Shown: positions 17,424 to 44,286, counted from the first letter of the stretch. The stretch is DNA of 64,000 bases from Jiangellaceae bacterium (GCA_036566745.1 DATCVR010000339.1:2580-66579), one strand, 5' to 3'. Numbers and translations are program-made. The notes: generated by a model from the sequence alone, not told the origin.

Positions 17424-17452
17424 TTACGGTCCGTCGTCAGGAGTCGGAGTCC

Positions 17453-20400: not shown

Positions 20401-20635
20401 GATGGGTGACGTCTCGAGCGAGTGGCGGGTCGGCGAGGGCCGCTTCGAGCTGCGCGTCGGCGTGCCCGTGGGCGCGACGGCCGACGTCCGGCTCCCGACG
20501 TCGCGGCTGGACGACGTGCGCGAGTCCGGTGCGGTGGTGGCCGCCACCGCCACCGCCGCCGCCGCCGACGTCGGCGCCGAGGTCTCCGTGATCGTCGGCT
20601 CCGGCCGGTACGAGTTCACCGCACCCTGCGGCTGA
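17453..20635 (+). CDS. Alpha-L-rhamnosidase, GH78 (no signal peptide)
   Basis: GH78 N-terminal pattern (VERLVNPLGV...FGWRLEA...QTAYRIRV...WDSG) and the catalytic-domain motif FLAVPTDCPQRDERMGWTGDAQ. The GTG at 17453 follows AGGAG. The ORF-track start at 17417 lies inside the operator. Confidence 0.85.
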   Translation: MPHHPPTPPVDPAGAPNVVDLRVERLVNPLGVGEARPLFGWRLEAAGRDRRQTAYRIRVTTDDAALAVWDSGLVRSSRCHDVRHDGPPLRSRTRYQWSVRVWDESARSSPWSAPATFETALADDQWHAAAWIGSSIERDARRLPSLDPTSQFGDICRVWAPDVDGAVPRAAVFGTVVSLPDEPVAGAGAVVVGAGHAELWVNDTLVDLDAGGVVDGALVAALVPGPNRIVVSAATDLGGPPGVLARVDVRLRSGATMSVGTDGRWRCGDTPAAVSAPTSALAVEVGAHGDPPWGREVITHRPSPYLRREIDLPAPVRRARARSTALGAYELRINGRRVGESRLSPGWTDFATRVAYQTHDVTDLFQPGANAVGAVLADGWYAGHLADWGPFQYGDQRLFRMRIDLELEDGSRVVVVTDRDWRVGDGATRYADLQNGEVVDLRLEPTRWDCPGFDDTDWAAALVAEPSHGRLEPESAPPIVATQEIPAETVVTRADGAHVVDFGQNVVGWVRLRLAGAAGTRVLVRHAEVLDAGPGSGLTTSGERPFLYTESLRHARCTDEYILAGDPDGELAEPRFTVHGFRYCEVIGYDRPLAPGDITAVVAHADLEPTGTFECSDARLNRLHANIGWSQRGNFLAVPTDCPQRDERMGWTGDAQAFASTAAFGYDVRGFLRKWLQDVRDAQFADGSVPHVAPDLFTKAGVARGDAGGAAGWGDAIVVVPAELARLYGDDRVVEENLEAIGAWLEFCRGSSAGGIRPDSGFGDWLAVTHTPRDLVATAFFAHSARLAAGLAARVERPDLVARWSALHAEVRAAFRARWVRGGGVIVPGTQAAYVLALHFGLFDDAERDRAAARLAAEVRARHDHLTTGFLATPYLLPVLSSHGYEDIAFRLLGQESYPSWLYPVVHGSATTIWERWDSWSDSRGFQDPSMTSFNHYAYGAVGEWMYRTLGGIEILEDGPHTLRVRPRPGGGVTWARATLRTVMGDVSSEWRVGEGRFELRVGVPVGATADVRLPTSRLDDVRESGAVVAATATAAAADVGAEVSVIVGSGRYEFTAPCG

Positions 20636-23090: not shown

Positions 23091-26000
23091 TCACCAGGTC
23101 CGCCGCGCGGCACTCCAGCCGACCTCGCCGAGGTGGAACGCCACCGGGACGGCCGGGGCGTCCGCCTGGTAGAGGACGCTGTCCGTGGCGGCGACGTCGT
23201 GGCGGAACCGCACCCCGGCCTCGACGGCGACGACGTCGGCGCGGCCGGCCCAGTCGCCGAGACCCGCCGCCACCCGGTTCCAGCCCGCCGGCCAGACTCG
23301 CGCGTACCCCACCCGCTCGCCCGCGGTGGCGCTGTGCACGCGCAGGACCAGCTCGGGCCGCATCCCATGTGGCGTGGCCAGGCACAGGTCGACCATCGCG
23401 TAGCCGAACGTCGCCGTGGTCAGGTCGAGTGGCTCCGGGAAGTCGATCCGCAGCAGCTGGGGGACTTCGGCGCCGGTGTCGGTGCGACCCGTCGCCCGGA
23501 CGACCGGCCCGCCGAGCTGCGCGTGATGGACCGGCATGCAGACGATGCCCTCGGGCAGGACGTCGAGGGCGGCGAGGTCGACGGTCGGGGTGAGCGACCC
23601 TGCCTCGACCGCCGCGGCCAGCCAGCCGCCTCCGCCTCGGACGTCGGACGGCACCGGCGCCCGCGCGGGTGCCTGGAACGGCGGCGTCGGCGCAGGTGAC
23701 GATGCAGTCGGCGCGGGCCAGCCGGTCTCGGTGCGGTGGCGTCCGGATCCCAGCTCGACGTCGTCCGTGCCCGGCAGTCGCACCGTCGCCGACGAGCCGA
23801 CCGGCACCTCCACGTCGACGACCAGACGGTCGCCGACGCGCTGCCAGCCGGCCCGGACGGTGCCGCGCACCGTCTCGGTGACCGAGGCCGCCCGGCTCAC
23901 CCCGTCGACCGGCTGCGGAGCGACGACGAACGACCGGAACCCCGGTGCCGACGGCCGCACTCCGACCAGCGTCGTCCACACCCATCCGGCGAACGGTCCG
24001 CCGAGGCCGACGTGGTCGAGCGACCCCGTGCCGGTGTTGCGCGGGTCGATCCACCACGACTCCCAGAGCGTTCCCGGACCGTCGACCAGCATCGCGCCCA
24101 CACCGGGCTGGGCCGGCTGGTGGATCGCGTCGCTGATCGCCTGCGAGCGCCCCACACCGGCCAGCGCCCGCACGACCGTGCTGGTGGCGCCGAAGCCGGT
24201 GGTGATCCGGTTGCCCCGGGCGTGCATGACCTCGGCGACCCGCGCTCCGAGCAGCCGTGCCTCGGCGGGGGTGGCGAGGCCCGCGGCCATCGCCACGCCG
24301 GACGAGCCCTGTGAGCCGTTGCCCCAGGTGCCGCGCTCGGGGTCGTGGAACACCGCGCGCGCGGAGGCTCGCAGGGTGGCCGCCTGGCCTCGCCGGAGCT
24401 CGGCCGCCGGGTCGTCGCCCAGCGCGGCCTCGAGCTCGGCCAGGCTGTCGAGGGCGTCCAGCGCGGCTCCGGTGTGCAGGACCTCCGGCGGGGTCTGTTC
24501 GAGGCCGAGCCAGTCGTGGCCGTAGCTGATCGCGGCCCCGGACACGACGCCGTCGCGGACGAGTCCGAGCTGGTAGTCGGCCCAGCGCCGCAGGCTGTCG
24601 AGGTGGGCCTCGACCACGCTGCGGTCGCCATAGTGGTGCCAGTGGCCGAGCAGGACGCGTTGCAGCGCCGAGCCCCACACCGGGTCCGGCGGCGTCGCGT
24701 CCGGGCGCAGGCTGGGTGCGATGGCGGGGAGGGCGCCGTCGTCGCGCTGGCTCGTAGCGAGGTCGCCCAGCCACTTGCGGTAGAAGCCGGCCAGGTCGAG
24801 GTGGGCGAGCGCGAGGTCGGTGGTGGCCGCGGCGTCGCCGGTCCAGCCCGACTGCTCGCGGGTGGGGCAGTCCTCGGGGATGCCGTGGGCGTTGTTGAGC
24901 TGCGTCCGGGACGCCGCGGCCACGAGCCGTTCGAGCGTGGCGTCGTCACTGCTGAAGCCGGCCAGCCGGGGGAGATCGGAGTGCAGGACCAGCGCGTGGA
25001 CCTCGACCTCGGCGTCGTCGGGCAGCCCGATGACCTCGACGTAGCGGAAGCCGTGGAACGCGAACCACGCCTCGGCCTGCTCGCCCGGGCGCCCGGCGGC
25101 GGTGTACTCGACGGACTGGCGGTGCCGGCCGGTGTCGTAGGGCATCTTCAGGTTGGTGGTGTCCACGCCGCCGTCGGGGTGCAGCAGCTCGCCGTGGACC
25201 AGGGTGAGCGAGGTGCCCGGCGGCAGCGCGCTGTGCAGCGTGAGGCGGCTGCGTCCGGCGATGTTCTCGCCCGCGTCGAAGATCCGGCTCCCCGTGGTGG
25301 TCCGGCGGAGCTCCCGGGTGCCGAGCTCGGCGCCCACCCGGATCGGGGGCGCGGGATCGGGCTCGATCCGGCGCGGAAGCAGGGGCACCGGCTCGGTTCC
25401 CGTCGTCACGCCGGCCGGTCCGAGCACCGTCGCCGGTTCGCCGCCGGACGCGTCGGCGGCGTGCCGGCCGTCGTGGGCTTCGACGTAGAACGCCTCGTCG
25501 ACGACGACCTGGGACCGGCGGGTGCGCCAGCCCGTCCCGGTGCCGGCGCGATGCACCGAGCCGTCGGGCAGCACCGCGACGACCTCGGCGAGAACGCGCG
25601 GATCCAGCCCACTCGCCCGCCAGTGGCTCGCGCCCAGGACCAGCTCGAGGTCGTTCTGGCCCTCGCGCAGCAGATCCGTGACGTCGTAGGTGCGGCTGAG
25701 GGCGCGGACGGGATCGGTGCGCGACGGCTCGGCGGTGCCCGGATTCACCGCCACGCCGCCGATCGAGGCGCGGTACAGACCTTGTCCGGTGACGTGCAGG
25801 CGGGCCCGGATCGGCGCGCCGGGCAGGACGACGACCCCGGTCACGGCGCTGGTCGAGGGTGCGCCGAGCCACGACGCCGACCAGTCCGCCGCGCTGAACG
25901 GCCCGGTCTCGAGCGCCACCGGATCGGCCCAGGGCGACCACGCGTCGTGCTCGTCACACACCCGGACCGTCCACGCCCACCTGCCGTGTGCGGTCAGCTC

Positions 26001-26276
26001 GGCGTCCGGCCGGATCCAGGTCGACTCCGCGGACTCGACCCGGCCGGAACCCCAGGTCAGTTCGGCGCGAGGGCAGCCGCGCGGGTCGAGTCCGTCCGGC
26101 GCGACCCGGATCTCGTACGCGGTCTGGGCCTGTCCGTCGCGCCACAGGGGGACGACCCACGACAGGCGGGGGCGCGGCTCGATCGCGACGTCCACGAACC
26201 GGTCCGGCCGGGCGGGCTGATCCGCGGGCGGACGGTCGTCGACCCGCAACCGGATCGGCGCGGGACTCGACGACAT
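23091..26276 (-). CDS. Alpha-L-rhamnosidase, GH78, with an extra C-terminal module of about 210 aa (no signal peptide)
   Basis: QTAYEIRV...WGSG N-terminal pattern and GIPEDCPTREQSGWTGDAA. ORF trimmed to MSSSPAPIRL at 26276, 2 nt after the upstream stop. Confidence 0.85.
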   Translation of the reverse strand: MSSSPAPIRLRVDDRPPADQPARPDRFVDVAIEPRPRLSWVVPLWRDGQAQTAYEIRVAPDGLDPRGCPRAELTWGSGRVESAESTWIRPDAELTAHGRWAWTVRVCDEHDAWSPWADPVALETGPFSAADWSASWLGAPSTSAVTGVVVLPGAPIRARLHVTGQGLYRASIGGVAVNPGTAEPSRTDPVRALSRTYDVTDLLREGQNDLELVLGASHWRASGLDPRVLAEVVAVLPDGSVHRAGTGTGWRTRRSQVVVDEAFYVEAHDGRHAADASGGEPATVLGPAGVTTGTEPVPLLPRRIEPDPAPPIRVGAELGTRELRRTTTGSRIFDAGENIAGRSRLTLHSALPPGTSLTLVHGELLHPDGGVDTTNLKMPYDTGRHRQSVEYTAAGRPGEQAEAWFAFHGFRYVEVIGLPDDAEVEVHALVLHSDLPRLAGFSSDDATLERLVAAASRTQLNNAHGIPEDCPTREQSGWTGDAAATTDLALAHLDLAGFYRKWLGDLATSQRDDGALPAIAPSLRPDATPPDPVWGSALQRVLLGHWHHYGDRSVVEAHLDSLRRWADYQLGLVRDGVVSGAAISYGHDWLGLEQTPPEVLHTGAALDALDSLAELEAALGDDPAAELRRGQAATLRASARAVFHDPERGTWGNGSQGSSGVAMAAGLATPAEARLLGARVAEVMHARGNRITTGFGATSTVVRALAGVGRSQAISDAIHQPAQPGVGAMLVDGPGTLWESWWIDPRNTGTGSLDHVGLGGPFAGWVWTTLVGVRPSAPGFRSFVVAPQPVDGVSRAASVTETVRGTVRAGWQRVGDRLVVDVEVPVGSSATVRLPGTDDVELGSGRHRTETGWPAPTASSPAPTPPFQAPARAPVPSDVRGGGGWLAAAVEAGSLTPTVDLAALDVLPEGIVCMPVHHAQLGGPVVRATGRTDTGAEVPQLLRIDFPEPLDLTTATFGYAMVDLCLATPHGMRPELVLRVHSATAGERVGYARVWPAGWNRVAAGLGDWAGRADVVAVEAGVRFRHDVAATDSVLYQADAPAVPVAFHLGEVGWSAARRTW

Positions 26277-26278
26277 GC

Positions 26279-28303
26279 TCAGGCCCCCTGGTCGTCGGCG
26301 AGGAAGGACAGGAGGTTGACCGCGATGGTGTCCGGCATGATCGCCATGCCGCCGTACCTGCCGGTGGTGGAGTTGTGGGTGTCCGGCAGGCACAGGTCGA
26401 ATCGGCCCTCGCGGTAGGCGTCGAGGGTCGCGGGCAGGTTGTGTGGGCGCCACGAGTCGTCGTCATGATCGAGCAGCCAGCGCACCGCGGCCCAGGTGAC
26501 GCCCTTCTGGAAGCGTCGCCAGTCGATCTCCGGATCCGCCTCGGCGAGATCCAGACCATGCGCGATGGCCAGCGCGAATGTCGCCAGCACCTCCCACTGC
26601 ACGTGGTCGCGTACCCAGTGCGCGAAGTACCAGTCCGACGAGCACAGGCAGGGCTTGGTGTTGTAGAGCATCGGGGTGTCGCGCGGCTCCCACAGGTGGG
26701 TGAACGCGAGCAGGGTACGCAGCCAGTGGGCCGCGCGAGCCCGGTACCGGGCGTCGCCGAAGACCCGGTGGCCCAGCTCGTAGGCCACCGCGGCGTGACC
26801 GGCGGCGAGGAGGTTGGGTGCGTGCAGGGGCGTCTCCCAGAAGTCGCCACCCTCGGGCCGGTGCAGGTCGAGGCACGCGTCGAGGGCCCGCCGGGCGCCC
26901 TCGGCGAAGGCCTTGTCGCCGGTGGCGTCGTGCAGCTCGAAGAGCCGGATCGCCGGGGTCATGCTCAGGTCGAGGGCGGTGTCGCCGGCCAGGCCCATCG
27001 GCGCCACGAGGTCGCGCGCCACCACGAAGTCGTCCTTGCTCTTGTGTCGGCCGTCCGGCTCGAAGGCGAAGGTGCCGTCGTCGCGCTGGTGGGACAGCAG
27101 CTCGTGCCCCTCGGCACGCAGTTCGTCGACGCCGGGCTCGACGCGCGGAGGCAGGGTGGCCAGCTGGTCGACCAGGTGCCGGGAATGCGGGCTCTGCGGG
27201 AACCGCTCGACGTAGCCCGCCGCGAACGCGGGCGCGGTGGGACGGACGTCGGTCGGGGTCTGCGCGGGTCCGTAGCCGCGGCCGTCGTGCCAGAGGTGGG
27301 TGGTGACCGCCTCGGCGATGCGGTGCAGGGTCTCCTCCAGCGGCCACCGTGGCGCCGGAGGCTCGGGCAGGCCGTGCCGGAGCACCCAGTCGGTGACGGC
27401 GTCGAGGCTGCGTCCGGCAACGACGCTGATCTCGGCGCCGAGCTCGATCCGCTGGCCCTTGTGCAGTTCCATCGGCGGATCGGCGTGCCAGCCGTCGCCG
27501 GAGAGGTCGCGCGCCTCCGGCAGCATGAGCCCGAGCAGTGAGTTGTCGCGGCGCTCGACCACGTTCGGCGAGGAGAACACCGGCTGGGGGTGCTCGCGGC
27601 TCATGCTGAACCAGCCGGTGGCGTCCTGGTCGGGATCCCACGACAGCGCCACCGCGGTGCCGTGGTGCGACACCGCCATGACCGGCACCGACACCGTCTG
27701 GCGATGGGGGACCGTCCGCATCGCCCACGGGTCGCGGAACCAGTCGGTGCCGCTGGTCCACTCCCGGTCCAGCGCCCACTCGACCCCCGGCAGCAGGGCG
27801 TCGTCGCGGGCCGCTCCGAACGAGCCCTCGCCCACCCGCAGCCAGGGCCCGCGCAGGTAACGCACATAGAGGTCGGCCTGCGACTCCAGCCGATAGTCGA
27901 GCCGGAGCCGGGCCGCCGTGGCGTCGAGGGTGAGGGTGACCCGGCCGGTGATCGCCGGACCGTCGAAGGGCGAGCCGATCCAGCTGCCGAAGGACGTGGT
28001 GCGCAGCGCGTCGGCCACCACCATCGACCGGACCTCGAACGCCAGCTGCTGCTCGCCTTCGGCGCCGGCGCTCGACTCGACCTCGGCCGCCTCCAGCCGC
28101 ACCGGCACCGGCGAGTCCCGCAGCGACAGCTCGCCGAGGTGGTCGAGCACACCCAGCAGGGTGCCGTCCTGAGCGACGAGCTCGGCCCAGCCCCAGCCGG
28201 TGGTGCGGCGGTGCGCCTCCACCCGCAGGGCGTGGTTGGCGATCACCCGCGTGTCGTGTCCGTACACCGCGTGGCGATAGCGCGGCTGGGCCGGGGTCGG
28301 CAT
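26279..28303 (-). CDS. Hypothetical 674-aa cytoplasmic protein with no family assignable by eye (beta-rich N-terminal half, helical repeat/toroid-like C-terminal half)
   Basis: Strong SD (CCAGGAGGCCACGATG), high GC3, tight packing between the amidohydrolase and GH78 genes. The C-terminal half is rich in helical G-x-A-x repeats, plus HQRDDGTFAF. Confidence 0.7.
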   Translation of the reverse strand: MPTPAQPRYRHAVYGHDTRVIANHALRVEAHRRTTGWGWAELVAQDGTLLGVLDHLGELSLRDSPVPVRLEAAEVESSAGAEGEQQLAFEVRSMVVADALRTTSFGSWIGSPFDGPAITGRVTLTLDATAARLRLDYRLESQADLYVRYLRGPWLRVGEGSFGAARDDALLPGVEWALDREWTSGTDWFRDPWAMRTVPHRQTVSVPVMAVSHHGTAVALSWDPDQDATGWFSMSREHPQPVFSSPNVVERRDNSLLGLMLPEARDLSGDGWHADPPMELHKGQRIELGAEISVVAGRSLDAVTDWVLRHGLPEPPAPRWPLEETLHRIAEAVTTHLWHDGRGYGPAQTPTDVRPTAPAFAAGYVERFPQSPHSRHLVDQLATLPPRVEPGVDELRAEGHELLSHQRDDGTFAFEPDGRHKSKDDFVVARDLVAPMGLAGDTALDLSMTPAIRLFELHDATGDKAFAEGARRALDACLDLHRPEGGDFWETPLHAPNLLAAGHAAVAYELGHRVFGDARYRARAAHWLRTLLAFTHLWEPRDTPMLYNTKPCLCSSDWYFAHWVRDHVQWEVLATFALAIAHGLDLAEADPEIDWRRFQKGVTWAAVRWLLDHDDDSWRPHNLPATLDAYREGRFDLCLPDTHNSTTGRYGGMAIMPDTIAVNLLSFLADDQGA

Positions 28304-29649: not shown

Positions 29650-29711
29650 AACGTACGGGGTCTACGCGGTGACGGTCAATCGGTGTTCGGTAACTATTTG
29701 ATACGGTTCAA
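29650..29711 (-). promoter_or_regulatory. Candidate promoter (TTGACC-18-TACGTT on the minus strand) with a weaker operator-like site TTGAACCGTATCAA upstream
   Basis: -35 is the complement of 29674-29679 and -10 the complement of 29650-29655. The 14-mer is the complement of 29698-29711. This is a locally AT-rich gap. Confidence 0.35.
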
Positions 29712-29721
29712 CCAGGTGAAC

Positions 29722-29752: not shown

Positions 29753-29769
29753 GAATCTGGCCGGCGGGC

Positions 29770-32700
29770 TCAGGCGTCCGCGCCGAACCAGCCGATCGAG
29801 TCGACCTGGAAGTGCGGGTTCCAGGTTGGGTAGTCGGCTCCCACGGCGTGCATGGTCACCTCGACGTGATCGACGGACGAGCGCCCCGCCCAGCCCGAGA
29901 CGTCGAGCGACACCTCGTTCCAGCCGTCCGGCGCGTAGGGCTCGGTGACGGTGAGCGTGTCCGTCCCCGAGGCCAGCGTGAACGTGACCTCGTAGCTCGT
30001 CGCGCCCGGCGCGCCGCCGTAGGAGTTGACGTACGCGACCACCGTCGCCGCGTCGCCGAGGTCGATCGGTTCGGCGGCGTCGACGAACATCGTCTTGGGC
30101 GCCAGCGACGATCCCACCGTCGCGGCCCCGTCCAGGGCGTGCGATCCGCTCTGGGGCGAGCCCGGGCCGTTGGCCGTGGAGGTCACGGCCGCCACCGAGT
30201 CCATGCCCTCACCGGCCTGCCAACCCTGGACCGTGCCGTCGTCGAAGTCGTAGATCGGCGTCGCGACGGGCACCGGCTTGGGCGGGACGTCGACCTTCTC
30301 CGCGTACTGCCGGGTGGCGATCGAGAAGCACATCGTCGGGTCGTACGGGTCGGCCGGCGCGGAGCCGGTGACCGTCACCGTGAAGGTCCGGCTCTCGCCC
30401 GGAGCGAGGCCCTGGGCGCCGAGTTCGGCCGGGCTGACCCGGATCCCGTCGCACGCCTTGACCTCGATCTCCTCCTCGAGCGGGCTGAGGTCGTCGTTGC
30501 GCACCGTGACCTCCACGGACTCGCCCACGCCGATCCCGCCGGTCGCGGCCGCGTCGATCTCGACGTTGACCGCGCGATCGGCACCGGCGAGCTGGCGAGC
30601 CACCTGGACGTCGTCGAGGTCGACGTGTCCGGACCACTCGGCGTTCGTGTCTCCGCGTGCCCAGACCTTGATCCGCGCGATCGAGCTGCGCCCGTCCCAG
30701 CCGGACAGGTCGACGCTGACCCGCTGCCAGTCGCCGTTCTCGGGCAATCGGGCCGTGCCTTCGGCGACGCTGCCATCGGCGCCGTACACCTTGACCTTGG
30801 CGTAGCGGGACCCGATGTCGGCGTCCGCGGGGATTCGCACCCTCAGGCTGAGCGCCGTCGCCGACGACGCGTCGAGCGGCTCGGGGAGGACGACGTCGGT
30901 GCCCCTCCAGAGCTTGGCCAGGTTGGCCGCCATGCCTGCCTCGTAGGTGAAGCTGGTGCGCAGGAATCCGCCGGTGGCCGCCACGGTGTTGGCCGCGTCC
31001 GAGGTCCGCCAGCCCTGGGTGCCGTCGGAGAAGTCGGACACCGTGGTGGTCTTCCTGGGCGTGGCGGTGCTGCTCGCCCCGACCGTCACCGGGAGGTCAC
31101 GTACCGCCAGCGCGTCCGGATCCCAGCCGTCGACCACCTCGGACCAGTCGTCGATCCCGATGACGTCGAGGGCGAAGTCGGTGACCTCGAGCGAGCGCTC
31201 GGTGTCGATGTACTTGAACACGTCGTAGATCAGCTTCTGCTCGGCGGGCGGTGCGGGCGCGTCGACCGTGTCGTCCCACCACCACAGCCCCAGCCGCAGT
31301 CCGCCCTCGACCTTGTGGTCGACGTGGCGGTGCAGGATGAAGGAGTCGATCGCGGGCAGGAAGCGGATCTTGTAGTACGCCAGCGCATAACAGGCGGCCT
31401 GCAGCTTCTCCGCCTCGGCCGACGTCCCCGGGGTGTTGCAGCCCTGCTCGGAGAGGATGACGCGACGCGGCTGGCCGTTGTACAGCTGCTCGTCTCGGAG
31501 CAGGTACTCGTTGAGCACCTCGATGTTCTTGAACGTGATGCGCTCGGTGGTCTCCGGGTCCGGCGTGGCCGTCACGTCCTCCCAGAACGCCGGATCCAGC
31601 AGGTTCTCCGGGTAGGGGTGGTGGGCGATGTACCAGGGGTAATCGCCGTGTGCCTTGGTCAGCGCGTTCAGCCCGTCCACCACGTCGCGGCCCGGATAGA
31701 AGCGTCCGGGCGGGTCGGTCGGTCCGCTGGCGGTGCGCCACGAGTGGGTCAGCGAGGTGTAGGTGCGAGCCTCGTCGTAGGCCGTGCGGGTGGCGAGGTA
31801 GGTGATCCGCAGGGCCCGCTCGTAGGCGAGCAGGAATTCGTCGAGCGTCTTGACTCCCATGTTCTGCCACACCCACTGCGCGTCGACCTCGTTGCCGACG
31901 ATGAAGCCGGTGGCGCGGCCGAACTGCTGGTCCTCGCGGGTGTAGCGCTCGGCCAGGAACTCGATCGCGGCCGTGTAGTACGCCACCCCCTCGGCGGTCT
32001 CGGTGTTGAAGCCGAATACCGGGCCGCCGCTGAGGTCGGCGTCGGGGTGCTTGAGCACCGGCCAGGCGGAGTTGGCCGCCCCGTCGCGGTACAGGATGAG
32101 GATGAGGTTCACCACCGCGCCGTTGTCCGACAGCGGCTTGATCTGGCGGTCGAGTCCGGCCACGGCGTCGGCGTCGAAGTAGTACTCCGTGCCGTTCGAC
32201 GTGAACGGGATCGACTGCCCGTCGCCCTTGTCCTCGAGCTGCATGAGCGAGTTGAACGCGACGTTGATGCCCGCGTGGCCGATGCCCAGCTCCTCGGCGT
32301 CCGCGGTCAGCTGGACCTGCAGCCCCTTCTTGGTGGGGCTGTCGGGATAGGGGAACTGGTTGGTGGAAGTGATCTGGACGTCGTCGACGTAGTGGTACGT
32401 CCCGAGGGCGGCACCGTCGGCGACGGCCAGGTACTTGGCGTAGTAGAGGTCACGCTCGCCCGAGGTGCGGGCGACGTCCGCGCTGAAGGTGCCGTCTGCG
32501 GCGGTCGTGACGGTGGCGACCGGCTCGCCCGAGGCCCACGACGACTCGTCGGCCTCGGTGGCGAGCGCGTAGAGGTCCACGGTCGATCCGGCGGCCGCGA
32601 GGCCCGAGACCGTGACGGCCGCGTCGGTGGCGCGCACGCTCGTCACACCGGTTCCGGCCGCTGCCGGGGAGGCGGGTGGCGCCTCGCCGGCGGTGCTGGT

Positions 32701-32799
32701 GGGTGCGGCGACGGCTGGCGTGCCGGCCAGGGCGCTCCAGCCCAGCGCTAGTGCGAGCAGCGGCGACAACGTGGTGCGGAGGTGACGGGGTCTTCGCAT
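29770..32799 (-). CDS. Secreted multidomain glycoside-hydrolase-like protein (signal peptide, Ig-like domain, clan-GH-A-like TIM barrel, repeated beta-sandwich/CBM-like modules)
   Basis: Signal peptide MRRPRHLRTTLSPLLALALGWSALAGTPAVAA. FIVGNEVD (Asn-Glu acid/base-like) and VILSEQG (nucleophile-like). Two D-F-[SD]-D-G-T-Q-G-W module starts. My recollection is that the barrel resembles Pfam DUF5722 (unverified). Confidence 0.8.
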   Translation of the reverse strand: MRRPRHLRTTLSPLLALALGWSALAGTPAVAAPTSTAGEAPPASPAAAGTGVTSVRATDAAVTVSGLAAAGSTVDLYALATEADESSWASGEPVATVTTAADGTFSADVARTSGERDLYYAKYLAVADGAALGTYHYVDDVQITSTNQFPYPDSPTKKGLQVQLTADAEELGIGHAGINVAFNSLMQLEDKGDGQSIPFTSNGTEYYFDADAVAGLDRQIKPLSDNGAVVNLILILYRDGAANSAWPVLKHPDADLSGGPVFGFNTETAEGVAYYTAAIEFLAERYTREDQQFGRATGFIVGNEVDAQWVWQNMGVKTLDEFLLAYERALRITYLATRTAYDEARTYTSLTHSWRTASGPTDPPGRFYPGRDVVDGLNALTKAHGDYPWYIAHHPYPENLLDPAFWEDVTATPDPETTERITFKNIEVLNEYLLRDEQLYNGQPRRVILSEQGCNTPGTSAEAEKLQAACYALAYYKIRFLPAIDSFILHRHVDHKVEGGLRLGLWWWDDTVDAPAPPAEQKLIYDVFKYIDTERSLEVTDFALDVIGIDDWSEVVDGWDPDALAVRDLPVTVGASSTATPRKTTTVSDFSDGTQGWRTSDAANTVAATGGFLRTSFTYEAGMAANLAKLWRGTDVVLPEPLDASSATALSLRVRIPADADIGSRYAKVKVYGADGSVAEGTARLPENGDWQRVSVDLSGWDGRSSIARIKVWARGDTNAEWSGHVDLDDVQVARQLAGADRAVNVEIDAAATGGIGVGESVEVTVRNDDLSPLEEEIEVKACDGIRVSPAELGAQGLAPGESRTFTVTVTGSAPADPYDPTMCFSIATRQYAEKVDVPPKPVPVATPIYDFDDGTVQGWQAGEGMDSVAAVTSTANGPGSPQSGSHALDGAATVGSSLAPKTMFVDAAEPIDLGDAATVVAYVNSYGGAPGATSYEVTFTLASGTDTLTVTEPYAPDGWNEVSLDVSGWAGRSSVDHVEVTMHAVGADYPTWNPHFQVDSIGWFGADA

Positions 32800-32822
32800 G
32801 GCGGACTCCTGTCCGGCGGGGT

Positions 32823-32866
32823 TGAGACGTTTCAGAGACTGTGGCCCAGCAGGTACCCGGAGGCAA
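32823..32866 (-). promoter_or_regulatory. Operator TGAAACGTCTCA with CAGTCT -10 (minus strand) upstream of the secreted enzyme gene
   Basis: The operator is the complement of 32823-32834, the -10 of 32836-32841, and a possible -35 TTGCCT of 32861-32866 (19-nt spacer). Confidence 0.45.
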
Positions 32867-40923: not shown

Positions 40924-41880
40924 ATGGCAACAACCACTGGCGCTCCACCGGTAGTGCCACCGGTCGGCGATCCCGAGCCGCCGAGAGCGCGGCGGCGGAG
41001 CATCCCGTGGTTCGTCTACGTGGCGCTGCTGCCCCTGGCCGCGGTGCTCGCGCTCTTCCAGTACTACCCGGCGCTGAGCGGGATCTTCAGGTCGTTCTGG
41101 GACTGGAATCCCGGCCTCGAGTCGACCTTCGTCGGCCTCGACAACTTCGCCACGATGATGGACGACGAGATCTGGTGGCGGTCGTTCAAGAACCTCGGCT
41201 ACATCTTCGTGTTCGGGGTGGTGTCGTGGATCATCCCGATCATCGCCGCCGAGCTGCTCATCACGCTGCGCAGTGACCGGGCCCAGTTCGTGTTCCGCAC
41301 GCTGCTGATCATCCCGATGGCCTTCCCCGGCGTGGTGACGGCGCTGGTGTGGTCGTTCATGTACCACCCGAACAACGGCGTGATCAACAAGGCGCTGACC
41401 GCGATCGGGCTGGAGAGCCTGGCGCAGAACTGGGTCGGCGACCCGTCGTTCGCCTTGTGGTCGCTGCTGTTCATCGGGTTCCCGTTCATCGCCGGATTGC
41501 CGTTCCTGATCTTCTACTCGACCTTGCGGAACATCCCGCGGGAGATCTTCGAGGCCGCGGCGCTCGACGGCGTGAGCCGGGTGCGGAGGTTCTGGTCGAT
41601 CGACCTGCCGTTGATGGCCCGCCAGGTGAAGCTCCTGGTGTTCCTGGCCGTCATCGGCACCCTGCAGTACGGCTTCATGGCCTACATCGTCACCTCCGGC
41701 GGCCCGGACAACTCGACCATGGTGCCGGTGCTCCGGATGCTGAACGTCGCCTTCCAGGGCCAGGACTGGGGCTACGCCGCCGCGCTGTCCACCACGCTGT
41801 TCGTCTTCACGCTCGTCCTGAGCGGGCTCGTGGTGTTCGTCCGGCGCCGCGACTCCTCCACCAACGTCCGCGGCATGTGA
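40924..41880 (+). CDS. Carbohydrate ABC transporter permease (MalF/UgpA-like)
   Basis: Multiple TM segments and the EAA loop EAAALDGVSRVRRFWSIDLPLM. SD GGAGGA. Confidence 0.85.
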   Translation: MATTTGAPPVVPPVGDPEPPRARRRSIPWFVYVALLPLAAVLALFQYYPALSGIFRSFWDWNPGLESTFVGLDNFATMMDDEIWWRSFKNLGYIFVFGVVSWIIPIIAAELLITLRSDRAQFVFRTLLIIPMAFPGVVTALVWSFMYHPNNGVINKALTAIGLESLAQNWVGDPSFALWSLLFIGFPFIAGLPFLIFYSTLRNIPREIFEAAALDGVSRVRRFWSIDLPLMARQVKLLVFLAVIGTLQYGFMAYIVTSGGPDNSTMVPVLRMLNVAFQGQDWGYAAALSTTLFVFTLVLSGLVVFVRRRDSSTNVRGM

Positions 41881-41912
41881 GCGGCCCCGAGACGCAAGGA
41901 GTGTCTGTCACG

Positions 41913-42788
41913 ATGAGCACCGCCACGCTCGAGGCCCCGGCCACCACCAGGTCGGCGTCGCCGGCACCGAAGAAGCGGTCGCGGCAGTGGGGGGTGAAGG
42001 CGGCCCTGAGCGGGCTGGTCTTCGTCAGCCTCTTCCCGTACCTGTTCATGCTCGGCACGTCGGTCAAGGACAACCTGCAGTTCTCCGAGAACTACTGGAT
42101 GCCGGTGCTGCCGTTCCACTGGGAGAACTACGGCCGGGCATGGGAGCAGATCCAGCCCTACATGGTGGCCTCGGTGGTGGTCGCCGTGGTGGCGATCGTG
42201 GCCATCGTGGCGTTGTCGCTGGTGGCGGGGTTCGTGCTGGCGCGGTACTCGTTCCCGGGGCGCAGCTTCTTCTTCGTGATGATCGCCGCGCTGATGATGG
42301 TGCCGAGCATCTCCAGCCTGATCCCGCTGTTCGTGATGATGCGCGACTTCGGGCTGCTCAACACGTATCCGGTGCTGATCATCCCGCACGTGGCCGGCGG
42401 CGTGGTCATCGGCACGATCCTGATGAAGACGTTCATCGAGGGCATCCCGCAGGAGCTGTTCGACGCCGCGCGGGTCGACGGCGCCGGTGGCCCGAGGATG
42501 TTCGCCTCGATCATGATGCCGCTGTCGCTTCCGGTCATCGGCACCGTCGCGCTCATCACCATCAACGGGGTGTGGAACGACTTCTTCTGGCCGCTGCTCA
42601 CGGTCACCGAGAACGAGCTGCGCACGGTCTCGGTCGGGCTGCTGTTCTTCCAGGGGCAGTCAGGCACCGAGTACGGCCCGATGTTCGCGGGCTACATGCT
42701 GGCGAGCGTGCCGCTGTTGCTGCTGTTCACCTTCCTGTCCAAGTATTTCCTGGCCGGGGTGCAAGGCGGACTGCCCGGATCGCACTGA
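41913..42788 (+). CDS. Carbohydrate ABC transporter permease (MalG/UgpE-like)
   Basis: EAA loop DAARVDGAGGPRMFASIMMPL. ORF trimmed to the ATG at 41913 after AAGGAG. Confidence 0.85.
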   Translation: MSTATLEAPATTRSASPAPKKRSRQWGVKAALSGLVFVSLFPYLFMLGTSVKDNLQFSENYWMPVLPFHWENYGRAWEQIQPYMVASVVVAVVAIVAIVALSLVAGFVLARYSFPGRSFFFVMIAALMMVPSISSLIPLFVMMRDFGLLNTYPVLIIPHVAGGVVIGTILMKTFIEGIPQELFDAARVDGAGGPRMFASIMMPLSLPVIGTVALITINGVWNDFFWPLLTVTENELRTVSVGLLFFQGQSGTEYGPMFAGYMLASVPLLLLFTFLSKYFLAGVQGGLPGSH

Positions 42789-42976
42789 GCACGGCGGCGG
42801 CATCCGTCGCGTTCCGGCCGGGTCGTGTCCGGCGGCTGGGGGATGAACCGGCTCAATCGAAGCCAGGGTCCGCGCCTGTCCGGCCGGAGCCGGTGCACGC
42901 GACCCGGCAACGATGCGGTTGGCCAGGCGTGACCTGATCCGGCCAGTGCTGGCGGCCAGGTTCTCCCGAGCATCTC

Positions 42977-43021
42977 TTGACACGCGGCTGCTCCGGGCCG
43001 AGCCTGAGTGAAACGTTTTTA
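42977..43021 (+). promoter_or_regulatory. Promoter (TTGACA-17-GAGCCT) plus operator TGAAACGTTTTTA for rhaI-SBP-rhaM-SDR
   Basis: -35 at 42977-42982, -10 at 43000-43005, operator at 43009-43021. Confidence 0.5.
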
Positions 43022-43053
43022 GACGTACGTCGAGACGACGCGGGAGTGCATGG

Positions 43054-44220
43054 ATGTCTGACCGGGCGAGGGCCGTCGAGGCCCTGAAGGCGCAGCAGAT
43101 CGAGCTACCGTCGTGGGCCTTCGGCAACTCCGGGACGCGGTTCAAGGTGTTCGCCCAGCCCGGTGTGCCCCGTACGCCGGAGGAGAAGATCGACGACGCC
43201 GCCCAGGTGCACGCCTTCACCGGCGCCGCGCCGATCGTGTCGCTGCACATCCCGTGGGACCAGGTCGACGACTACGAGAAGCTCGCCGCTCATGCCCAGG
43301 ACCGTGGCGTCCGCATCGGTGCCATCAACGCCAACGTCTTCCAGGACGACGAGTACCTGCTCGGCAGCGTCACCAGCCCGCGGCCGGCCGTCCGCCGCAA
43401 GGCCACCGACCACCTGCTCGCGTGCGTCGAGATCGCCCGGGCCACCGGCTCGCGGGACATCAAGCTGTGGTTCTCCGACGGCACGAACTACCCGGGGCAG
43501 GACAGCATCCGCGCTCGTCAGGACCGCCTGGCCGGCGCGCTGGACGAGGTGTATGCCGCGCTCGGCCCGGACCAGCGCATCCTGCTGGAGTACAAGTTCT
43601 TCGAGCCCGCGTTCTACACCACGGACGTGCCCGACTGGGGCACGTCGTACGCCCACTGCCTGCGCCTCGGCGACCAGGCGATGGTCTGTGTCGACACCGG
43701 CCACCACGCGCCCGGCACCAACATCGAGTTCATCGTCGCCTTCCTCGTGCGGGAGGGGAAGCTCGGAGCCTTCGACTTCAATTCCCGCTTCTACGCCGAC
43801 GACGACCTCATGGTCGGGGCCGCCGATCCGTTCCAGCTGTTCCGGATCATGCACGAGATCGTGCAGGCTGGCGTGGTCGAACCGGACTCGGGCATCAACT
43901 TCATGCTCGACCAGTGCCACAACATCGAGCCCAAGATCCCGGCCCAGATCCGGTCGGTGATGAACGTTCAGGAGGCCACCGCGAAGGCTCTGCTGGTGGA
44001 CTCCGAAGCGCTCGCGGCGGCCCAGGCCGCGGGCGACGTCCTGGGCGCCCACGGCGTCCTCATGGACGCCTACGACACCGATGTCCGCCCGATGCTCGCC
44101 GAGATCCGGCAGGAGCAGGGACTCGACCCGGATCCCGTGGCCGCCTTCACCAGGTCGGGCTACCACGAGCGGGTCGTCGACGCTCGCCAGGACGGAGTCC
44201 CGGCCGGCTGGGGAGCCTGA
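43054..44220 (+). CDS. rhaI: L-rhamnose isomerase (actinobacterial/Pseudomonas stutzeri type, xylose-isomerase-like TIM barrel)
   Basis: IELPSWAFGNSGTRFKVF, LHIPWD, DTGHHAPGTNIE, DQCHNIEPK. 388 aa. Confidence 0.88.
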   Translation: MSDRARAVEALKAQQIELPSWAFGNSGTRFKVFAQPGVPRTPEEKIDDAAQVHAFTGAAPIVSLHIPWDQVDDYEKLAAHAQDRGVRIGAINANVFQDDEYLLGSVTSPRPAVRRKATDHLLACVEIARATGSRDIKLWFSDGTNYPGQDSIRARQDRLAGALDEVYAALGPDQRILLEYKFFEPAFYTTDVPDWGTSYAHCLRLGDQAMVCVDTGHHAPGTNIEFIVAFLVREGKLGAFDFNSRFYADDDLMVGAADPFQLFRIMHEIVQAGVVEPDSGINFMLDQCHNIEPKIPAQIRSVMNVQEATAKALLVDSEALAAAQAAGDVLGAHGVLMDAYDTDVRPMLAEIRQEQGLDPDPVAAFTRSGYHERVVDARQDGVPAGWGA

Positions 44221-44286
44221 TGCGCCCGCACCCACGTCTGACCCGTACACACTCACCGTCGAGGTGTCGAGAGAAGAGGATCCGTC

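What the first reader, a model, noticed from the sequence alone, without database searches (positions are those of the whole stretch)
29770..32799. Secreted 1009-aa clan-GH-A-like enzyme under the rhamnose operator: likely the extracellular depolymerase of the system, substrate unknown
It has a signal peptide ending AVA-AP and an Ig-like domain. A TIM-barrel-like core carries an Asn-Glu pair (FIVGNEVD) and a downstream Glu (VILSEQG), spaced as the acid/base and nucleophile of retaining clan-A hydrolases. At least two beta-sandwich modules follow, each beginning D-F-[SD]-D-G-T-Q-G-W. I recall this barrel as the uncharacterised DUF5722 type, which is unverified. The rha-type operator 1 nt after its -10 ties it to rhamnose. 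No characterised rhamnose-releasing endo-enzyme has this architecture, to my knowledge.
Basis: partly seen in the sequence, partly recalled or inferred. Interest (0 to 1): 0.7.

Follow-up and report, generated by a model that had tools for sequence, protein, structure and literature searches.

The report
Secreted uncharacterised glycosidase in rhamnose regulon
This gene encodes a secreted, multi-domain enzyme from an uncharacterised family (DUF5722) that has the fold and catalytic residues of a classical sugar-chain-cutting enzyme and is wired into the bacterium's rhamnose-utilisation circuit, making it a strong, testable candidate for a new family of enzymes that attack rhamnose-containing glycans outside the cell.

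Summary
The ORF 29770-32799 (-) encodes 1009 aa: a Sec-type signal peptide (AVA|AP), an Ig-like domain, a full-length DUF5722 domain (E=1.4e-130), then CBM-like, beta-sandwich and CBM-like modules.

A confident AF2 model (pLDDT 93.6) is a (beta/alpha)8 barrel. Its nearest PDB neighbours are clan GH-A families (GH39, GH2, GH1, GH53) at only 8-16% identity. N303-E304 end strand beta4 and E451 ends beta7. These residues, plus H394 and Y396, are conserved in 250-254 of 254 family members.

A 16-bp LacI-type operator lies 22 nt upstream of the ATG. It recurs only at intergenic sites next to rha genes in the window. Similar sites head DUF5722 genes or operons in 10 of 23 actinomycete loci.

GH78 rhamnosidase genes lie within 10 kb in 30 of 51 Actinomycetota/Bacillota loci and 2 of 28 loci from other phyla. 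In the 12-50 kb rha region only this enzyme and the ABC binding protein carry export signals.

Best reading: a rhamnose-regulated, secreted retaining GH-A glycanase. It would feed rhamnosylated oligosaccharides to a co-regulated ABC importer and cytoplasmic GH78s. Substrate and bond are unknown. No paper or solved structure was found. It would define a new GH-A family.

The parts
29770..32799 (-). Whole ORF, 1009 aa plus stop: secreted DUF5722 multi-domain protein
32707..32799 (-). Sec-type signal peptide, aa 1-31, predicted cleavage AVA|AP
   Evidence: read from the sequence; hydrophobic N-terminus in 107/113 homologues and no strict Tat motif
32416..32652 (-). N-terminal Ig-like beta-sandwich, about aa 50-128
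   Evidence: AF2 model, strands E12-88 of the aa 40-580 construct, pLDDT above 90
31135..32352 (-). DUF5722 (PF18989) catalytic (beta/alpha)8 barrel, aa 150-555
   Evidence: Pfam E=1.4e-130; AF2 pLDDT 93.6; Foldseek hits to GH39/GH2/GH1/GH53, E 1e-9 to 1e-7
31888..31893 (-). N303-E304, predicted acid/base Glu preceded by Asn, at the C-terminal end of strand beta4 (FIVG-NE)
   Evidence: N in 250/254 and E in 253/254 family members; strand positions
31612..31620 (-). H394-P395-Y396, the beta6 His-x-Tyr motif typical of GH5-like clan GH-A enzymes
   Evidence: H in 251/254, Y in 254/254; strand E350-354 of the model. The comparison with GH5 is from my own knowledge.
31447..31449 (-). E451, predicted catalytic nucleophile at the end of strand beta7 (RVILSE)
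   Evidence: 252/254 conserved; strand E408-413 of the model
30586..31062 (-). CBM-like jelly-roll module 1, about aa 580-738, begins DFSDGTQGW
   Evidence: profile hit to the CBM of mannanase 1wky, E=1.5e-4; AF2 and Foldseek (tandem CBM22 4xup 1.7e-9; 1wky rmsd 2.9 A); PF21253 Mann_GBD_bact matches in homologues
30289..30564 (-). Middle beta-sandwich (Ig/FN3-like spacer), about aa 746-837
   Evidence: AF2 model strands E174-265 of the aa 573-1009 construct
29785..30261 (-). CBM-like jelly-roll module 2, about aa 847-1005, begins DFDDGTVQGW
32821..32836 (-). LacI-type (RhaR-like) operator TCTGAAACGTCTCAAC; its last base is 22 nt upstream of the ATG
   Evidence: The equivalent site is conserved in J. 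rhizosphaerae L084 (17.8 bits, same position).
32838..32866 (-). Putative promoter: -35 TTGCCT (32861-32866), 17-nt spacer, -10 CACAGT (32838-32843)
   Evidence: read. The same layout (TTGATC, 17 nt, CACAGT) is present in L084. Not found by the consensus scan. Inferred only.
29697..29712 (-). Second operator, between the target's stop codon and the downstream LuxR-like / amidohydrolase / 674-aa / GH78b gene string
16180..17406 (-). LacI-family regulator (candidate RhaR), divergent from GH78a, with an operator at 17409-17424 between them
   Evidence: LacI orthologues next to GH78/rha genes in other actinomycetes
40924..45741 (+). Co-regulated CUT1-type ABC importer (two permeases 40924-42788, lipoprotein SBP 44287-45741) with rhaI (43054-44220); operator at 42842-42857
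   Evidence: Orthologues of these three transporter genes sit directly beside DUF5722 genes in many genomes.
17417..20635 (+). GH78 alpha-L-rhamnosidase a, no signal peptide, close homologue of SaRha78A
23091..26453 (-). GH78 alpha-L-rhamnosidase b, no signal peptide (ORF start probably downstream of 26453; 1061 aa in the ENA gene call)

Best explanation
The gene encodes a Sec-exported, modular glycoside hydrolase of the uncharacterised DUF5722 family. This family is a distinct sequence family within the clan GH-A (4/7) (beta/alpha)8-barrel hydrolases.

By analogy with that clan, it should work by a retaining double-displacement mechanism. E451 (end of beta7) would be the nucleophile and E304 (end of beta4, preceded by N303) the acid/base. 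H394 and Y396 (beta6) would position the nucleophile.

Transcription is most likely repressed by the locus's LacI-type RhaR, through an operator that abuts the putative -10 element, and relieved when L-rhamnose or a catabolite is present.

Outside the cell, held on its substrate by two CBM-like modules, the enzyme would cut a rhamnose-decorated or rhamnose-rich glycan. The bond is most likely a beta-D-type (equatorial) backbone or aglycone linkage rather than the rhamnosyl bond itself. The rhamnosylated oligosaccharides produced would be taken up by the co-regulated CUT1 ABC importer. Cytoplasmic GH78 rhamnosidases would then strip the rhamnose, which enters the isomerase/kinase/aldolase route and the oxidative route, both encoded in the window.

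Shown: domain family, fold, residue conservation, export signal, operator recurrence, conserved synteny. Inferred: catalysis, retaining stereochemistry, induction by rhamnose, endo action, the substrate, and the flow of products.

My confidence by sub-claim: clan GH-A type hydrolase about 0.9; member of the rhamnose (RhaR-like) regulon about 0.8; extracellular enzyme feeding the importer and GH78s about 0.6. The overall figure applies to the whole chain.
For: Family and fold.
- DUF5722, full-length match, E=1.4e-130.
- AF2 pLDDT 93.6, pTM 0.93.
- 417 PDB matches at E<=1e-3. The listed top 50 are clan GH-A barrels (GH39 5jvk 1.8e-9, GH2 beta-glucuronidases, GH1, GH53).
- N303/E304 follow strand FIVG (beta4) and E451 ends strand RVILSE (beta7).
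- Conservation in 254 members down to about 36% identity: N303 250, E304 253, H394 251, Y396 254, E451 252.

Export.
- Signal peptide present, with a hydrophobic N-terminal segment in 107/113 homologues.
- Some Bacillota homologues carry SLH cell-surface anchors.
- Among the products of the 12-50 kb region, only this protein and the SBP lipoprotein have export signals. Both GH78s and the 674-aa protein do not.

CBM-like modules.

Regulon.
- The operator occurs at 7 sites against 1.64 expected, all intergenic. They lie at LacI/GH78a, an L-rhamnonate dehydratase, rhaI, rhaEW, the target, the downstream gene string and an ABC exporter.
- A PWM built from these sites finds 32 sites of at least 18 bits in 982 kb of related high-GC loci, against 0-1 in shuffles.
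- Such sites head the DUF5722 gene or its operon in 10 of 23 Actinomycetota loci, plus a 17.8-bit site at the same position in the closest named orthologue.
- This fits the LacI-type RhaR regulon predicted for Actinomycetales, which includes rhamnosidases and an oligosaccharide ABC system (PMC3870299).

Synteny.
- GH78 within 10 kb in 13/23 Actinomycetota and 17/28 Bacillota loci, but only 1/5 Chloroflexota and 1/23 other phyla.
- GH106 is also adjacent in Kribbella and Microbacterium.
- ABC permeases are near DUF5722 in 35 of 79 loci.
- A Jiangella paralogue sits inside the rha operon.
Against: - No biochemical datum exists for any family member that I could find.
- The closest non-Jiangella orthologue examined, in Actinopolymorpha alba (67% identity), sits next to a GH84/GH20-type enzyme with no rhamnose genes and no operator. 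Ten of 23 actinomycete loci lack a nearby GH78. Members in Verrucomicrobiota and Planctomycetota associate with sulfatases instead. Family specificity is therefore not uniform, and the rhamnose link may hold only for a sub-clade.
- The operator upstream of the target scores lower (23 bits) than those at rhaEW, GH78a and the L-rhamnonate dehydratase (27-28 bits). The PWM was trained on the window's own sites.
- The promoter hexamers are weak and were not found by the consensus scan.
- CAZy membership could not be checked.
Confidence: 0.6

Rival explanations
1. The enzyme is itself an endo-alpha-L-rhamnosidase or rhamnanase. It would cleave Rha-Rha or Rha-X bonds inside an L-rhamnan or rhamnose-rich backbone (bacterial cell-wall or O-antigen rhamnans, algal rhamnan sulfate). 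It would handle alpha-L-rhamnoside much as GH39 alpha-L-iduronidase handles an alpha-L sugar on a beta-D-type scaffold.
For: - The identifiable glycosidases in the window's regulon are rhamnosidases, plus one 674-aa protein of unknown function, and all identifiable catabolic genes are for rhamnose. Partner loci add GH106 and further GH78s. An all-rhamnose product would explain this.
- The top Foldseek hit is a GH39.
- Sulfatases accompany the family in marine-type phyla.
- In the searched literature all endorhamnosidases are phage beta-helix tailspikes, so the niche for a bacterial enzyme appears unfilled.
Against: - No clan GH-A enzyme is known to cleave alpha-L-rhamnopyranosides. Known rhamnosidase families (GH78, GH106, GH28, GH90, GH145) have other folds (own knowledge).
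- The GH39 hit is no better than the hits to GH1, GH2 and GH53.
- M. murale has a GH1 in the locus, and the 674-aa and ~570-aa unknown proteins may be the enzymes for non-rhamnose residues.
Confidence: 0.15
2. It is a diglycosidase acting on small plant rhamnoglycosides (rutinosides, neohesperidosides, saponins). It would cleave the beta-glucosidic bond to the aglycone and release a rhamnosyl disaccharide, which is imported and split by GH78.
For: - Clan GH-A chemistry fits cleavage of a beta-D-glucoside. Known rutinosidases include GH5_23 enzymes, which are also clan GH-A (own knowledge).
- Only a GH78, plus a GH1 in M. murale, would then be needed inside the cell.
- GH78a is a close homologue of SaRha78A.
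Against: - Two CBM-like modules, SLH anchors and fused SGNH esterases in homologues point to a polymeric, possibly acetylated substrate.
- The protein is large and multi-modular, unlike known diglycosidases (own knowledge).
Confidence: 0.1
3. The rhamnose link is incidental for this protein. It would be a glycanase for a substrate unrelated to rhamnose (for example a beta-mannan, beta-galactan or glucuronan-type polymer) that happens to lie in a carbohydrate island, and the upstream operator-like sequence is non-functional.
For: - The A. alba orthologue and many family members lack rha neighbours.
- The CBM-like module resembles that of a mannanase.
- The target's operator is among the weaker sites.
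Against: - Operator plus synteny recur independently in Jiangella, Nonomuraea, Microtetraspora, Rhizohabitans, Microbacterium and Kribbella, and synteny also in Paenibacillaceae.
- Shuffled controls give 0-1 sites against 32 observed.
- From my rough estimate of GH78 copy number per genome, only a few per cent of random 20-kb windows should contain a GH78, against 59% observed.
Confidence: 0.08
4. It is catalytically something other than a hydrolase: a transglycosylase that remodels the organism's own cell-envelope glycan, or a non-catalytic binding protein.
For: Clan GH-A includes transglycosylases (own knowledge). No activity data exist for the family.
Against: The full catalytic constellation is near-invariant. 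The gene is placed in a catabolic regulon with an importer and exo-rhamnosidases.
Confidence: 0.05

Closest known systems
Clan GH-A (4/7 superfamily) retaining glycoside hydrolases; nearest structural neighbours are GH39 (PDB 5jvk), GH2 beta-glucuronidases (5uj6, 6d50), GH1 beta-glucosidases and GH53 beta-1,4-galactanases (2gft, 6gp5)
   Same: (beta/alpha)8 barrel. Asn-Glu at the end of beta4, Glu at the end of beta7 and His-x-Tyr on beta6, all near-invariant.
   Different: Only 8-16% identity to any solved structure, with Foldseek E values no better than 1e-9. No sequence-level match to any GH Pfam model, NCBIfam model or PDB chain. It is therefore a separate sequence family with unknown specificity.
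LacI-type RhaR regulon of Actinomycetales (Rodionova et al. 2013, PMC3870299): rha catabolic genes plus the rhiLFG-like ABC system and rhamnosidases ramA/rhmA
   Same: A LacI regulator divergent from a GH78. A palindromic operator at rhaI, rhaEW, GH78 and the ABC transporter. Uptake of rhamnose oligosaccharides co-regulated with catabolism. lldD-type dehydrogenase nearby.
   Different: The sections of that paper I read list cytoplasmic rhamnosidases and transporters but no secreted upstream enzyme. The DUF5722 protein would be the missing extracellular step. I could not compare my motif with the published logo, because figures are not held.
Bacillus sp. JAMB-602 alkaline mannanase (PDB 1wky): GH5 barrel plus C-terminal CBM (CBM59 as I recall; Pfam Mann_GBD_bact PF21253)
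   Same: Secreted clan GH-A barrel followed by a jelly-roll module that begins DFE..TQGW. Profile hit E=1.5e-4; rmsd 2.9 A over 160 columns.
   Different: The catalytic domains are unrelated at sequence level. The window protein has two such modules plus Ig-like domains. The window protein itself does not reach any Pfam threshold for PF21253.
Phage tailspike endorhamnosidases (P22, Sf6; GH90)
   Same: In the literature searched, these are the only endo-acting enzymes that cleave within rhamnose-containing polysaccharides.
   Different: They have a right-handed beta-helix fold, use an inverting mechanism and are virion-bound (own knowledge). No sequence or fold relation to DUF5722.
Diglycosidases (6-O-alpha-L-rhamnosyl-beta-D-glucosidases, for example fungal GH5_23 rutinosidases)
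   Same: Secreted clan GH-A enzymes that release a rhamnosyl disaccharide, so a rhamnosidase acts afterwards (own knowledge).
   Different: Small single-domain enzymes acting on flavonoid glycosides. There is no evidence here for that substrate, and the CBM, SLH and esterase fusions argue for a polymer.

Membership tests
Pfam DUF5722 (PF18989) | HMM match above the gathering threshold over the whole model | tested here: met
   436.2 bits against a cut-off of 30.5, E=1.4e-130, profile positions 1-393 of 393, aa 150-555
Clan GH-A (4/7 superfamily) | (beta/alpha)8 TIM-barrel catalytic domain | tested here: met
   AF2 pLDDT 93.6 with an alternating strand/helix pattern. Foldseek probability 1.00 to GH39, GH2, GH1 and GH53 barrels. 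This is a prediction, not an experimental structure.
Clan GH-A (4/7 superfamily) | Acid/base Glu, preceded by Asn, at the C-terminal end of strand beta4 | tested here: met
   FIVG (model strand E259-262) followed by N303-E304. N in 250/254, E in 253/254.
Clan GH-A (4/7 superfamily) | Nucleophile Glu at the C-terminal end of strand beta7 | tested here: met
   RVILSE (model strand E408-413) ends with E451. 252/254 conserved.
Clan GH-A (4/7 superfamily) | Retaining double-displacement hydrolysis demonstrated | not testable with these tools
   Needs enzyme assays, NMR of the product anomer, and trapping of the glycosyl-enzyme intermediate
Any characterised GH family of clan GH-A (GH1, GH2, GH5, GH39, GH53 and others) | Significant sequence similarity to family members | tested here: not met
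   No other Pfam family at E<=1 apart from a sub-threshold CBM_17_28 hit. No relevant NCBIfam hit. No PDB hit by phmmer at E<=10. The profile search hits only a CBM. hhalign against a GH1 gives nothing. Foldseek identity is 8-16%.
CAZy GH family assignment | Listing in, or HMM match to, a CAZy/dbCAN family | not testable with these tools
Zero papers mention DUF5722 or PF18989.
Actinomycete LacI-type RhaR regulon | Palindromic operator upstream of the gene that is shared with core rha genes | tested here: met
   Seven sites against 1.64 expected, at LacI/GH78a, an L-rhamnonate dehydratase, rhaI, rhaEW and the target
Actinomycete LacI-type RhaR regulon | Operator conserved upstream of orthologues in other genomes | tested here: met
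   Sites of at least 18 bits head the DUF5722 gene or operon in 10 of 23 Actinomycetota loci. L084 has a 17.8-bit site at the same position. Overall 32 sites against 0-1 in shuffles. Absent in A. alba and some Kribbella loci.
Actinomycete LacI-type RhaR regulon | Regulator binding and rhamnose-dependent induction | not testable with these tools
   Needs EMSA or DNase footprinting, and RT-qPCR or RNA-seq
CBM59 / Pfam Mann_GBD_bact (PF21253) | HMM or sequence match and jelly-roll fold | tested here: inconclusive
   The window protein alone gives no PF21253 hit at E<=1. A family profile hits the 1wky CBM at E=1.5e-4. Homologues give sub-threshold PF21253 hits of 20-26 bits against a cut-off of 27. 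The fold matches 1wky, CBM22 and CBM11. Carbohydrate binding is untested.
Known alpha-L-rhamnosidase or endorhamnosidase families (GH78, GH106, GH28, GH90, GH145) | Sequence or fold similarity | tested here: not met
   No Pfam hit to the Bac_rhamnosid* or Glyco_hydro_106 models. The fold is a TIM barrel, not an (alpha/alpha)6 toroid, beta-helix or beta-propeller.

The most novel reading that the evidence does not exclude
DUF5722 would be a new glycoside hydrolase family of clan GH-A whose actinomycete and Paenibacillaceae clade is dedicated to rhamnose-rich glycans. Its members would cleave rhamnosidic backbone bonds themselves. That would make them the first cellular, TIM-barrel, retaining endo-alpha-L-rhamnosidases (rhamnanases). 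They would work with at least two further unannotated cytoplasmic protein families (the 674-aa and ~570-aa proteins) in a previously undescribed rhamnan utilisation pathway.
Probability: 0.15. Interest if true: 0.8.

Novelty: new variant of a known kind. Interest (0 to 1): 0.6.

Why it matters
Rhamnose is abundant in pectins, gums, algal and bacterial polysaccharides and plant glycosides. In soil Gram-positive bacteria, the known routes start with exo-rhamnosidases and importers. In the predicted actinomycete RhaR regulon no extracellular enzyme has been assigned to make the imported oligosaccharides.

This work turns a large 'domain of unknown function' into a precise and cheap hypothesis. 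The family has 1,668 cluster representatives at 50% identity and spans many phyla. The hypothesis is a secreted retaining clan GH-A glycanase with named catalytic residues, a named regulator site, a defined partner transporter and partner GH78 enzymes.

If confirmed, it would found a new GH family and supply a tool for dissecting or valorising rhamnose-containing polymers. It would also give a handle on two further conserved, unannotated proteins that travel with it.

Tried and rejected
- Sequence searches of the whole protein against the PDB found nothing (phmmer). A family profile hit only a CBM.
- NCBIfam gave no meaningful hit for the target.
- Literature searches gave no characterisation: DUF5722, PF18989, new GH-A or rhamnose families, rhamnan or endo enzymes, endorhamnosidase terms (phage tailspikes only).
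- hhalign of the family alignment against a single GH1 sequence found no alignment. It therefore could not independently align the catalytic residues, and the assignment rests on the AF2 strand positions.
- The consensus promoter/terminator scan found no sites in 29500-33100.
- The solute-binding protein had only distant, uninformative PDB relatives, so the imported ligand could not be inferred.
- The 674-aa neighbour gave no Pfam hit even at E<=10, no PDB hit and only 'hypothetical' homologues, so it gave no clue to the substrate.
- The 352-aa 'DUF5722' in J. rhizosphaerae looked at first like an intracellular paralogue. It is an internally deleted remnant without the catalytic residues and was rejected as evidence.
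- An oxidative uronate pathway as a clue to a Rha-uronic acid product was considered. NCBIfam instead names two of the three enolase-superfamily dehydratases L-rhamnonate dehydratase, above the curated cut-off, and one FAH enzyme resembles 2,4-didehydro-3-deoxy-L-rhamnonate hydrolase. The idea has no support.
- Tat export was considered because of the N-terminal RR. No strict Tat motif occurs here or in 113 homologues.
- Model coordinates are not exposed to scripts, so cleft versus pocket geometry and subsite residues could not be analysed.

Full report

Yes. The minus-strand ORF 29770..32799 starts with ATG and encodes 1009 aa. Its codon-position GC (0.66/0.51/0.93) is that of genuine genes in this 72% GC window, unlike the overlapping antisense frames. 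An AGGAG lies 7 nt before the ATG.

The signal peptide ends AVA|AP. FIVGNEVD starts at aa 299 and VILSEQG at aa 447. DFSDGTQGW is at aa 589. The second copy, at aa 851, reads DFDDGTVQGW, one Val more than the stated pattern.

PF18989 matches end to end (1-393 of 393, aa 150-555, 436 bits, E=1.4e-130), and nothing else in Pfam or NCBIfam matches meaningfully.

**2. Anatomy**

Two AlphaFold2 models were built on alignments of 35 and 31 homologues. Both are confident: aa 40-580 has pLDDT 93.6 and pTM 0.93, and aa 573-1009 has pLDDT 93.8. Together they give this layout:

- signal peptide, aa 1-31
- Pro/Ala-rich linker
- Ig-like sandwich, about aa 50-128
- (beta/alpha)8 barrel, aa 150-555
- jelly roll 1, about aa 580-738
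- small beta-sandwich, about aa 746-837
- jelly roll 2, about aa 847-1005

Foldseek against the PDB gives 417 matches at E<=1e-3. The listed top 50 are clan GH-A barrels: GH39 5jvk (1.8e-9), GH2 beta-glucuronidases, many GH1 enzymes and GH53 galactanases. Identity is only 8-16%. No PDB chain is detectable by sequence.

In the model, N303-E304 directly follow strand FIVG (beta4). H394-x-Y396 follow strand YIAHH (beta6). E451 ends strand RVILSE (beta7). This is the defining '4/7' arrangement.

An exhaustive HMMER search finds 1,668 cluster representatives at E<=1e-3. I aligned the 254 retrieved family members with more than 80% coverage of the core; these include representatives down to about 36% identity. 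Conservation was N303 250, E304 253, H394 251, Y396 254 and E451 252.

The C-terminal jelly rolls resemble tandem CBM22, CBM11, CBM28 and the CBM of mannanase 1wky. For 1wky the profile E-value is 1.5e-4 and the rmsd is 2.9 A. Homologues give weak hits to Pfam Mann_GBD_bact.

Homologues add SGNH esterase domains or SLH anchors. In 107 of 113 full-length homologues there is a hydrophobic N-terminal segment, and none has a strict Tat motif. The family is therefore extracellular and modular, as polysaccharide-active enzymes usually are.

**3. Surroundings**

The window is an L-rhamnose island. It contains:

- a LacI regulator (16180-17406) divergent from GH78a (17417-20635; E=6e-218 to SaRha78A)
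- a second GH78 (23091-26453)
- equivalog-level L-rhamnose isomerase, plus rhaM, rhaB and the aldolase-dehydrogenase fusion RhaEW
- a CUT1 ABC importer
- an oxidative branch with two L-rhamnonate dehydratases above the curated cut-off, FAH-family hydrolases, Amidohydro_2 lactonase-like proteins, an aldehyde dehydrogenase and an lldD-like dehydrogenase

Downstream of the target on the same strand are a small GerE/LuxR protein, an Amidohydro_2 protein, a 674-aa protein with no family, and GH78b. Among all products of the 12-50 kb region, only the target and the SBP lipoprotein carry export signals.

An ENA metagenome contig carries the same gene order. The nearest named relatives are from Jiangella, at 76-77% identity.

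**4. The operator**

TGAAACGTCTCA lies at 32823-32834; the 16-mer TCTGAAACGTCTCAAC spans 32821-32836. It is 22 nt upstream of the ATG and starts 1 nt after CACAGT, which is preceded at 17 nt by TTGCCT.

With up to 2 mismatches the motif occurs at 7 sites, against 1.64 expected, and 0 of 100 shuffles reach that count. Every site is intergenic:

- between LacI and GH78a
- before an L-rhamnonate dehydratase
- before rhaI
- before rhaEW
- before the target
- before the downstream gene string
- before a fused ABC exporter

The consensus is aTTGAAACGnnTCAAt, a typical LacI-family palindrome.

A PWM built from these sites finds 32 sites of at least 18 bits in 982 kb of related high-GC loci, against 0-1 in shuffles. 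With gene orientation checked, such sites head the DUF5722 gene, or a same-strand operon running into it, in 10 of 23 Actinomycetota loci. These are from Nonomuraea, Microtetraspora, Rhizohabitans, two Microbacterium species and the Jiangella paralogue.

The closest named orthologue (J. rhizosphaerae) keeps TTGATC, 17 nt, CACAGT and then CTGAATCGTCTCAG (17.8 bits) at the same position.

This fits the LacI-type RhaR regulon that Rodionova et al. predicted for Actinomycetales. That regulon co-regulates rha genes, rhamnosidases and an oligosaccharide ABC system (PMC3870299). Binding and induction are inferred, not shown.

**5. Comparative context**

In Kribbella amoyensis the order is LacI, permease, permease, SBP, DUF5722, GH78, a BNR/LamG protein, GH106. 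In Microbacterium murale it is LacI, GH78, permease, permease, SBP, DUF5722, GH1, GH106, GH78. In Cohnella a GH78-like gene precedes the DUF5722 gene. In J. asiatica and J. muralis a DUF5722-SGNH paralogue lies inside the rha operon.

Across 79 genome loci, a GH78-type gene lies within 10 kb in:

| Group | Loci with GH78 |
|---|---|
| Actinomycetota | 13 of 23 |
| Bacillota | 17 of 28 |
| Chloroflexota | 1 of 5 |
| Other phyla | 1 of 23 |

ABC permeases are the commonest neighbour, in 35 of 79 loci.

There are exceptions. The A. alba orthologue sits beside a GH84/GH20-type gene. Members in Planctomycetota and Verrucomicrobiota sit with sulfatases. The rhamnose link is therefore strong but clade-limited.

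**6. Mechanism proposed**

Shown: the fold family, the catalytic constellation, export signals, CBM-like modules, operator recurrence and synteny.

Inferred: a retaining double-displacement hydrolase with E451 as nucleophile and E304 as acid/base. It would be derepressed when rhamnose is sensed and would act outside the cell on a rhamnose-bearing glycan. The resulting rhamnosylated oligosaccharides would enter through the co-regulated ABC importer and be trimmed by the cytoplasmic GH78s.

Because clan GH-A enzymes cleave equatorial (beta-D-type) bonds, I consider cleavage of a non-rhamnosyl backbone or aglycone bond the more likely chemistry. Candidate substrates:

- AGP or gum-arabic-type glycans, since SaRha78A releases Rha from gum arabic (PMC4052742)
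- acetylated rhamnose-containing heteropolysaccharides, given the SGNH fusions
- rhamnans
- plant rhamnoglycosides

None of these can be chosen with the present data.

**7. Rivals**

- An endo-alpha-L-rhamnosidase acting on the rhamnosyl bond itself (0.15)
- A rutinosidase-like diglycosidase (0.10)
- An incidental neighbour with a non-functional operator (0.08)
- A non-hydrolytic role (0.05)

Evidence for and against each is given in the rival explanations section.

**8. Known or new?**

The domain family is catalogued in Pfam and by PGAP as DUF5722. I found no paper that mentions it, no solved structure and no functional name. Named homologues are labelled DUF5722 or 'hypothetical', apart from one evidently mis-assigned JGI label.

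In the searched literature, endorhamnosidases are all phage tailspikes. I could not query CAZy or dbCAN, so a recent GH number cannot be excluded.

I file it as a member of Pfam DUF5722 and, structurally, of clan GH-A. It is not a member of any characterised GH family. As a kind of system it is familiar: a secreted glycanase, an ABC importer and cytoplasmic exo-glycosidases under one repressor. The enzyme family and its rhamnose connection are new, so I rate it 'new variant of a known kind'.

**9. Verdict**

Observation confirmed. Interpretation supported. Interest 0.6. This is a well-defined, experimentally cheap candidate for a new GH family tied to rhamnose glycans, and two further unannotated conserved proteins accompany it. 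It is not a new principle.

Noticed in passing
window 26279-28303 (-): A 674-aa cytoplasmic protein between the Amidohydro_2 gene and GH78b. It has no Pfam match even at E<=10 and no PDB sequence hit. It has 409 homologues, all unnamed or 'hypothetical', at about 50-58% identity across Actinomycetota, Chloroflexota, Planctomycetota, Paenibacillus and Bacteroidota. It co-locates with DUF5722 in L011, L014, L025, L076 and L084. It may be a further unrecognised enzyme of the same pathway.
   Followed up: partly
L036:12881-14590 and equivalents in L031, L038, L042, L047, L048, L049, L052; L076:2245-4041: A ~570-aa protein family with no Pfam match and no signal peptide. It lies directly downstream of the DUF5722 gene in 8 Paenibacillaceae loci. 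In an Anaerolineales MAG it is adjacent to a homologue of the 674-aa protein.
   Followed up: partly
window 9182-14286, 20790-23083 and 33065-50587: The island encodes both the phosphorylated rhamnose route (RhaI, RhaB, RhaEW, RhaM) and an oxidative route. The oxidative route has two L-rhamnonate dehydratases above the NCBIfam cut-off, FAH-family hydrolases resembling 2,4-didehydro-3-deoxy-L-rhamnonate hydrolase, lactonase-like Amidohydro_2 proteins, an aldehyde dehydrogenase and an lldD-like FMN dehydrogenase. AraC, GntR and IclR regulators are present in addition to LacI.
   Followed up: partly
window 51565-55314 (-) and 55388-55403: A fused ABC exporter-type protein (two TMD-NBD halves, 1249 aa) has an operator-like site (18.8 bits) just upstream of its start. 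Similar fused exporters lie near DUF5722 loci in 10 other genomes, including two Jiangella species. Its role in a catabolic regulon is unclear.
   Followed up: no
L084:5293-6351 (-) (Jiangella rhizosphaerae): A 352-aa 'DUF5722' gene inside the ABC-importer operon is an internally deleted remnant. It keeps the signal peptide, the Ig domain and the first half of the barrel, fused to the last ~50 aa of the terminal CBM. It lacks the N-E pair and the nucleophile Glu.
   Followed up: yes
L020, L023, L053, L060, L076, L079, L081: Sulfatase genes recur next to DUF5722 genes. These seven loci come mostly from Planctomycetota, Verrucomicrobiota and Chloroflexota, with one from Actinomycetota; only two of the seven (L020, L060) have a GH78 within 10 kb. 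This hints that those family members act on sulfated glycans.
   Followed up: no
window 17409-17424 versus ORF starts 17417 (+) and 17406 (-): The mechanical ORF starts of GH78a and of the LacI regulator abut or overlap the shared operator. The true start codons are probably further inside. The LacI HTH domain begins only at aa 71 of the ORF.
   Followed up: no
window 29260-29592 (-) and 29697-29712: A small (110-aa) GerE/LuxR-type HTH protein with its own operator sits directly downstream of the target. It is conserved in the same position in Jiangella (L014, L084, L087). It may be a second, local regulator of the Amidohydro_2 / 674-aa / GH78b string.
   Followed up: no
L012, L013, L016, L045 (Nonomuraea / Microtetraspora): These genomes carry two DUF5722 paralogues flanking the LacI-GH78-ABC cluster. 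In L013, L016 and L045 each paralogue is preceded by a high-scoring operator; in L012 the second paralogue is cut off at the locus edge, so its upstream region is not visible.
   Followed up: partly
window 4500-7250: This stretch has lower GC (0.67-0.69), and no ORF passed the GC3 coding filter although long ORFs are present. It was not examined.
   Followed up: no
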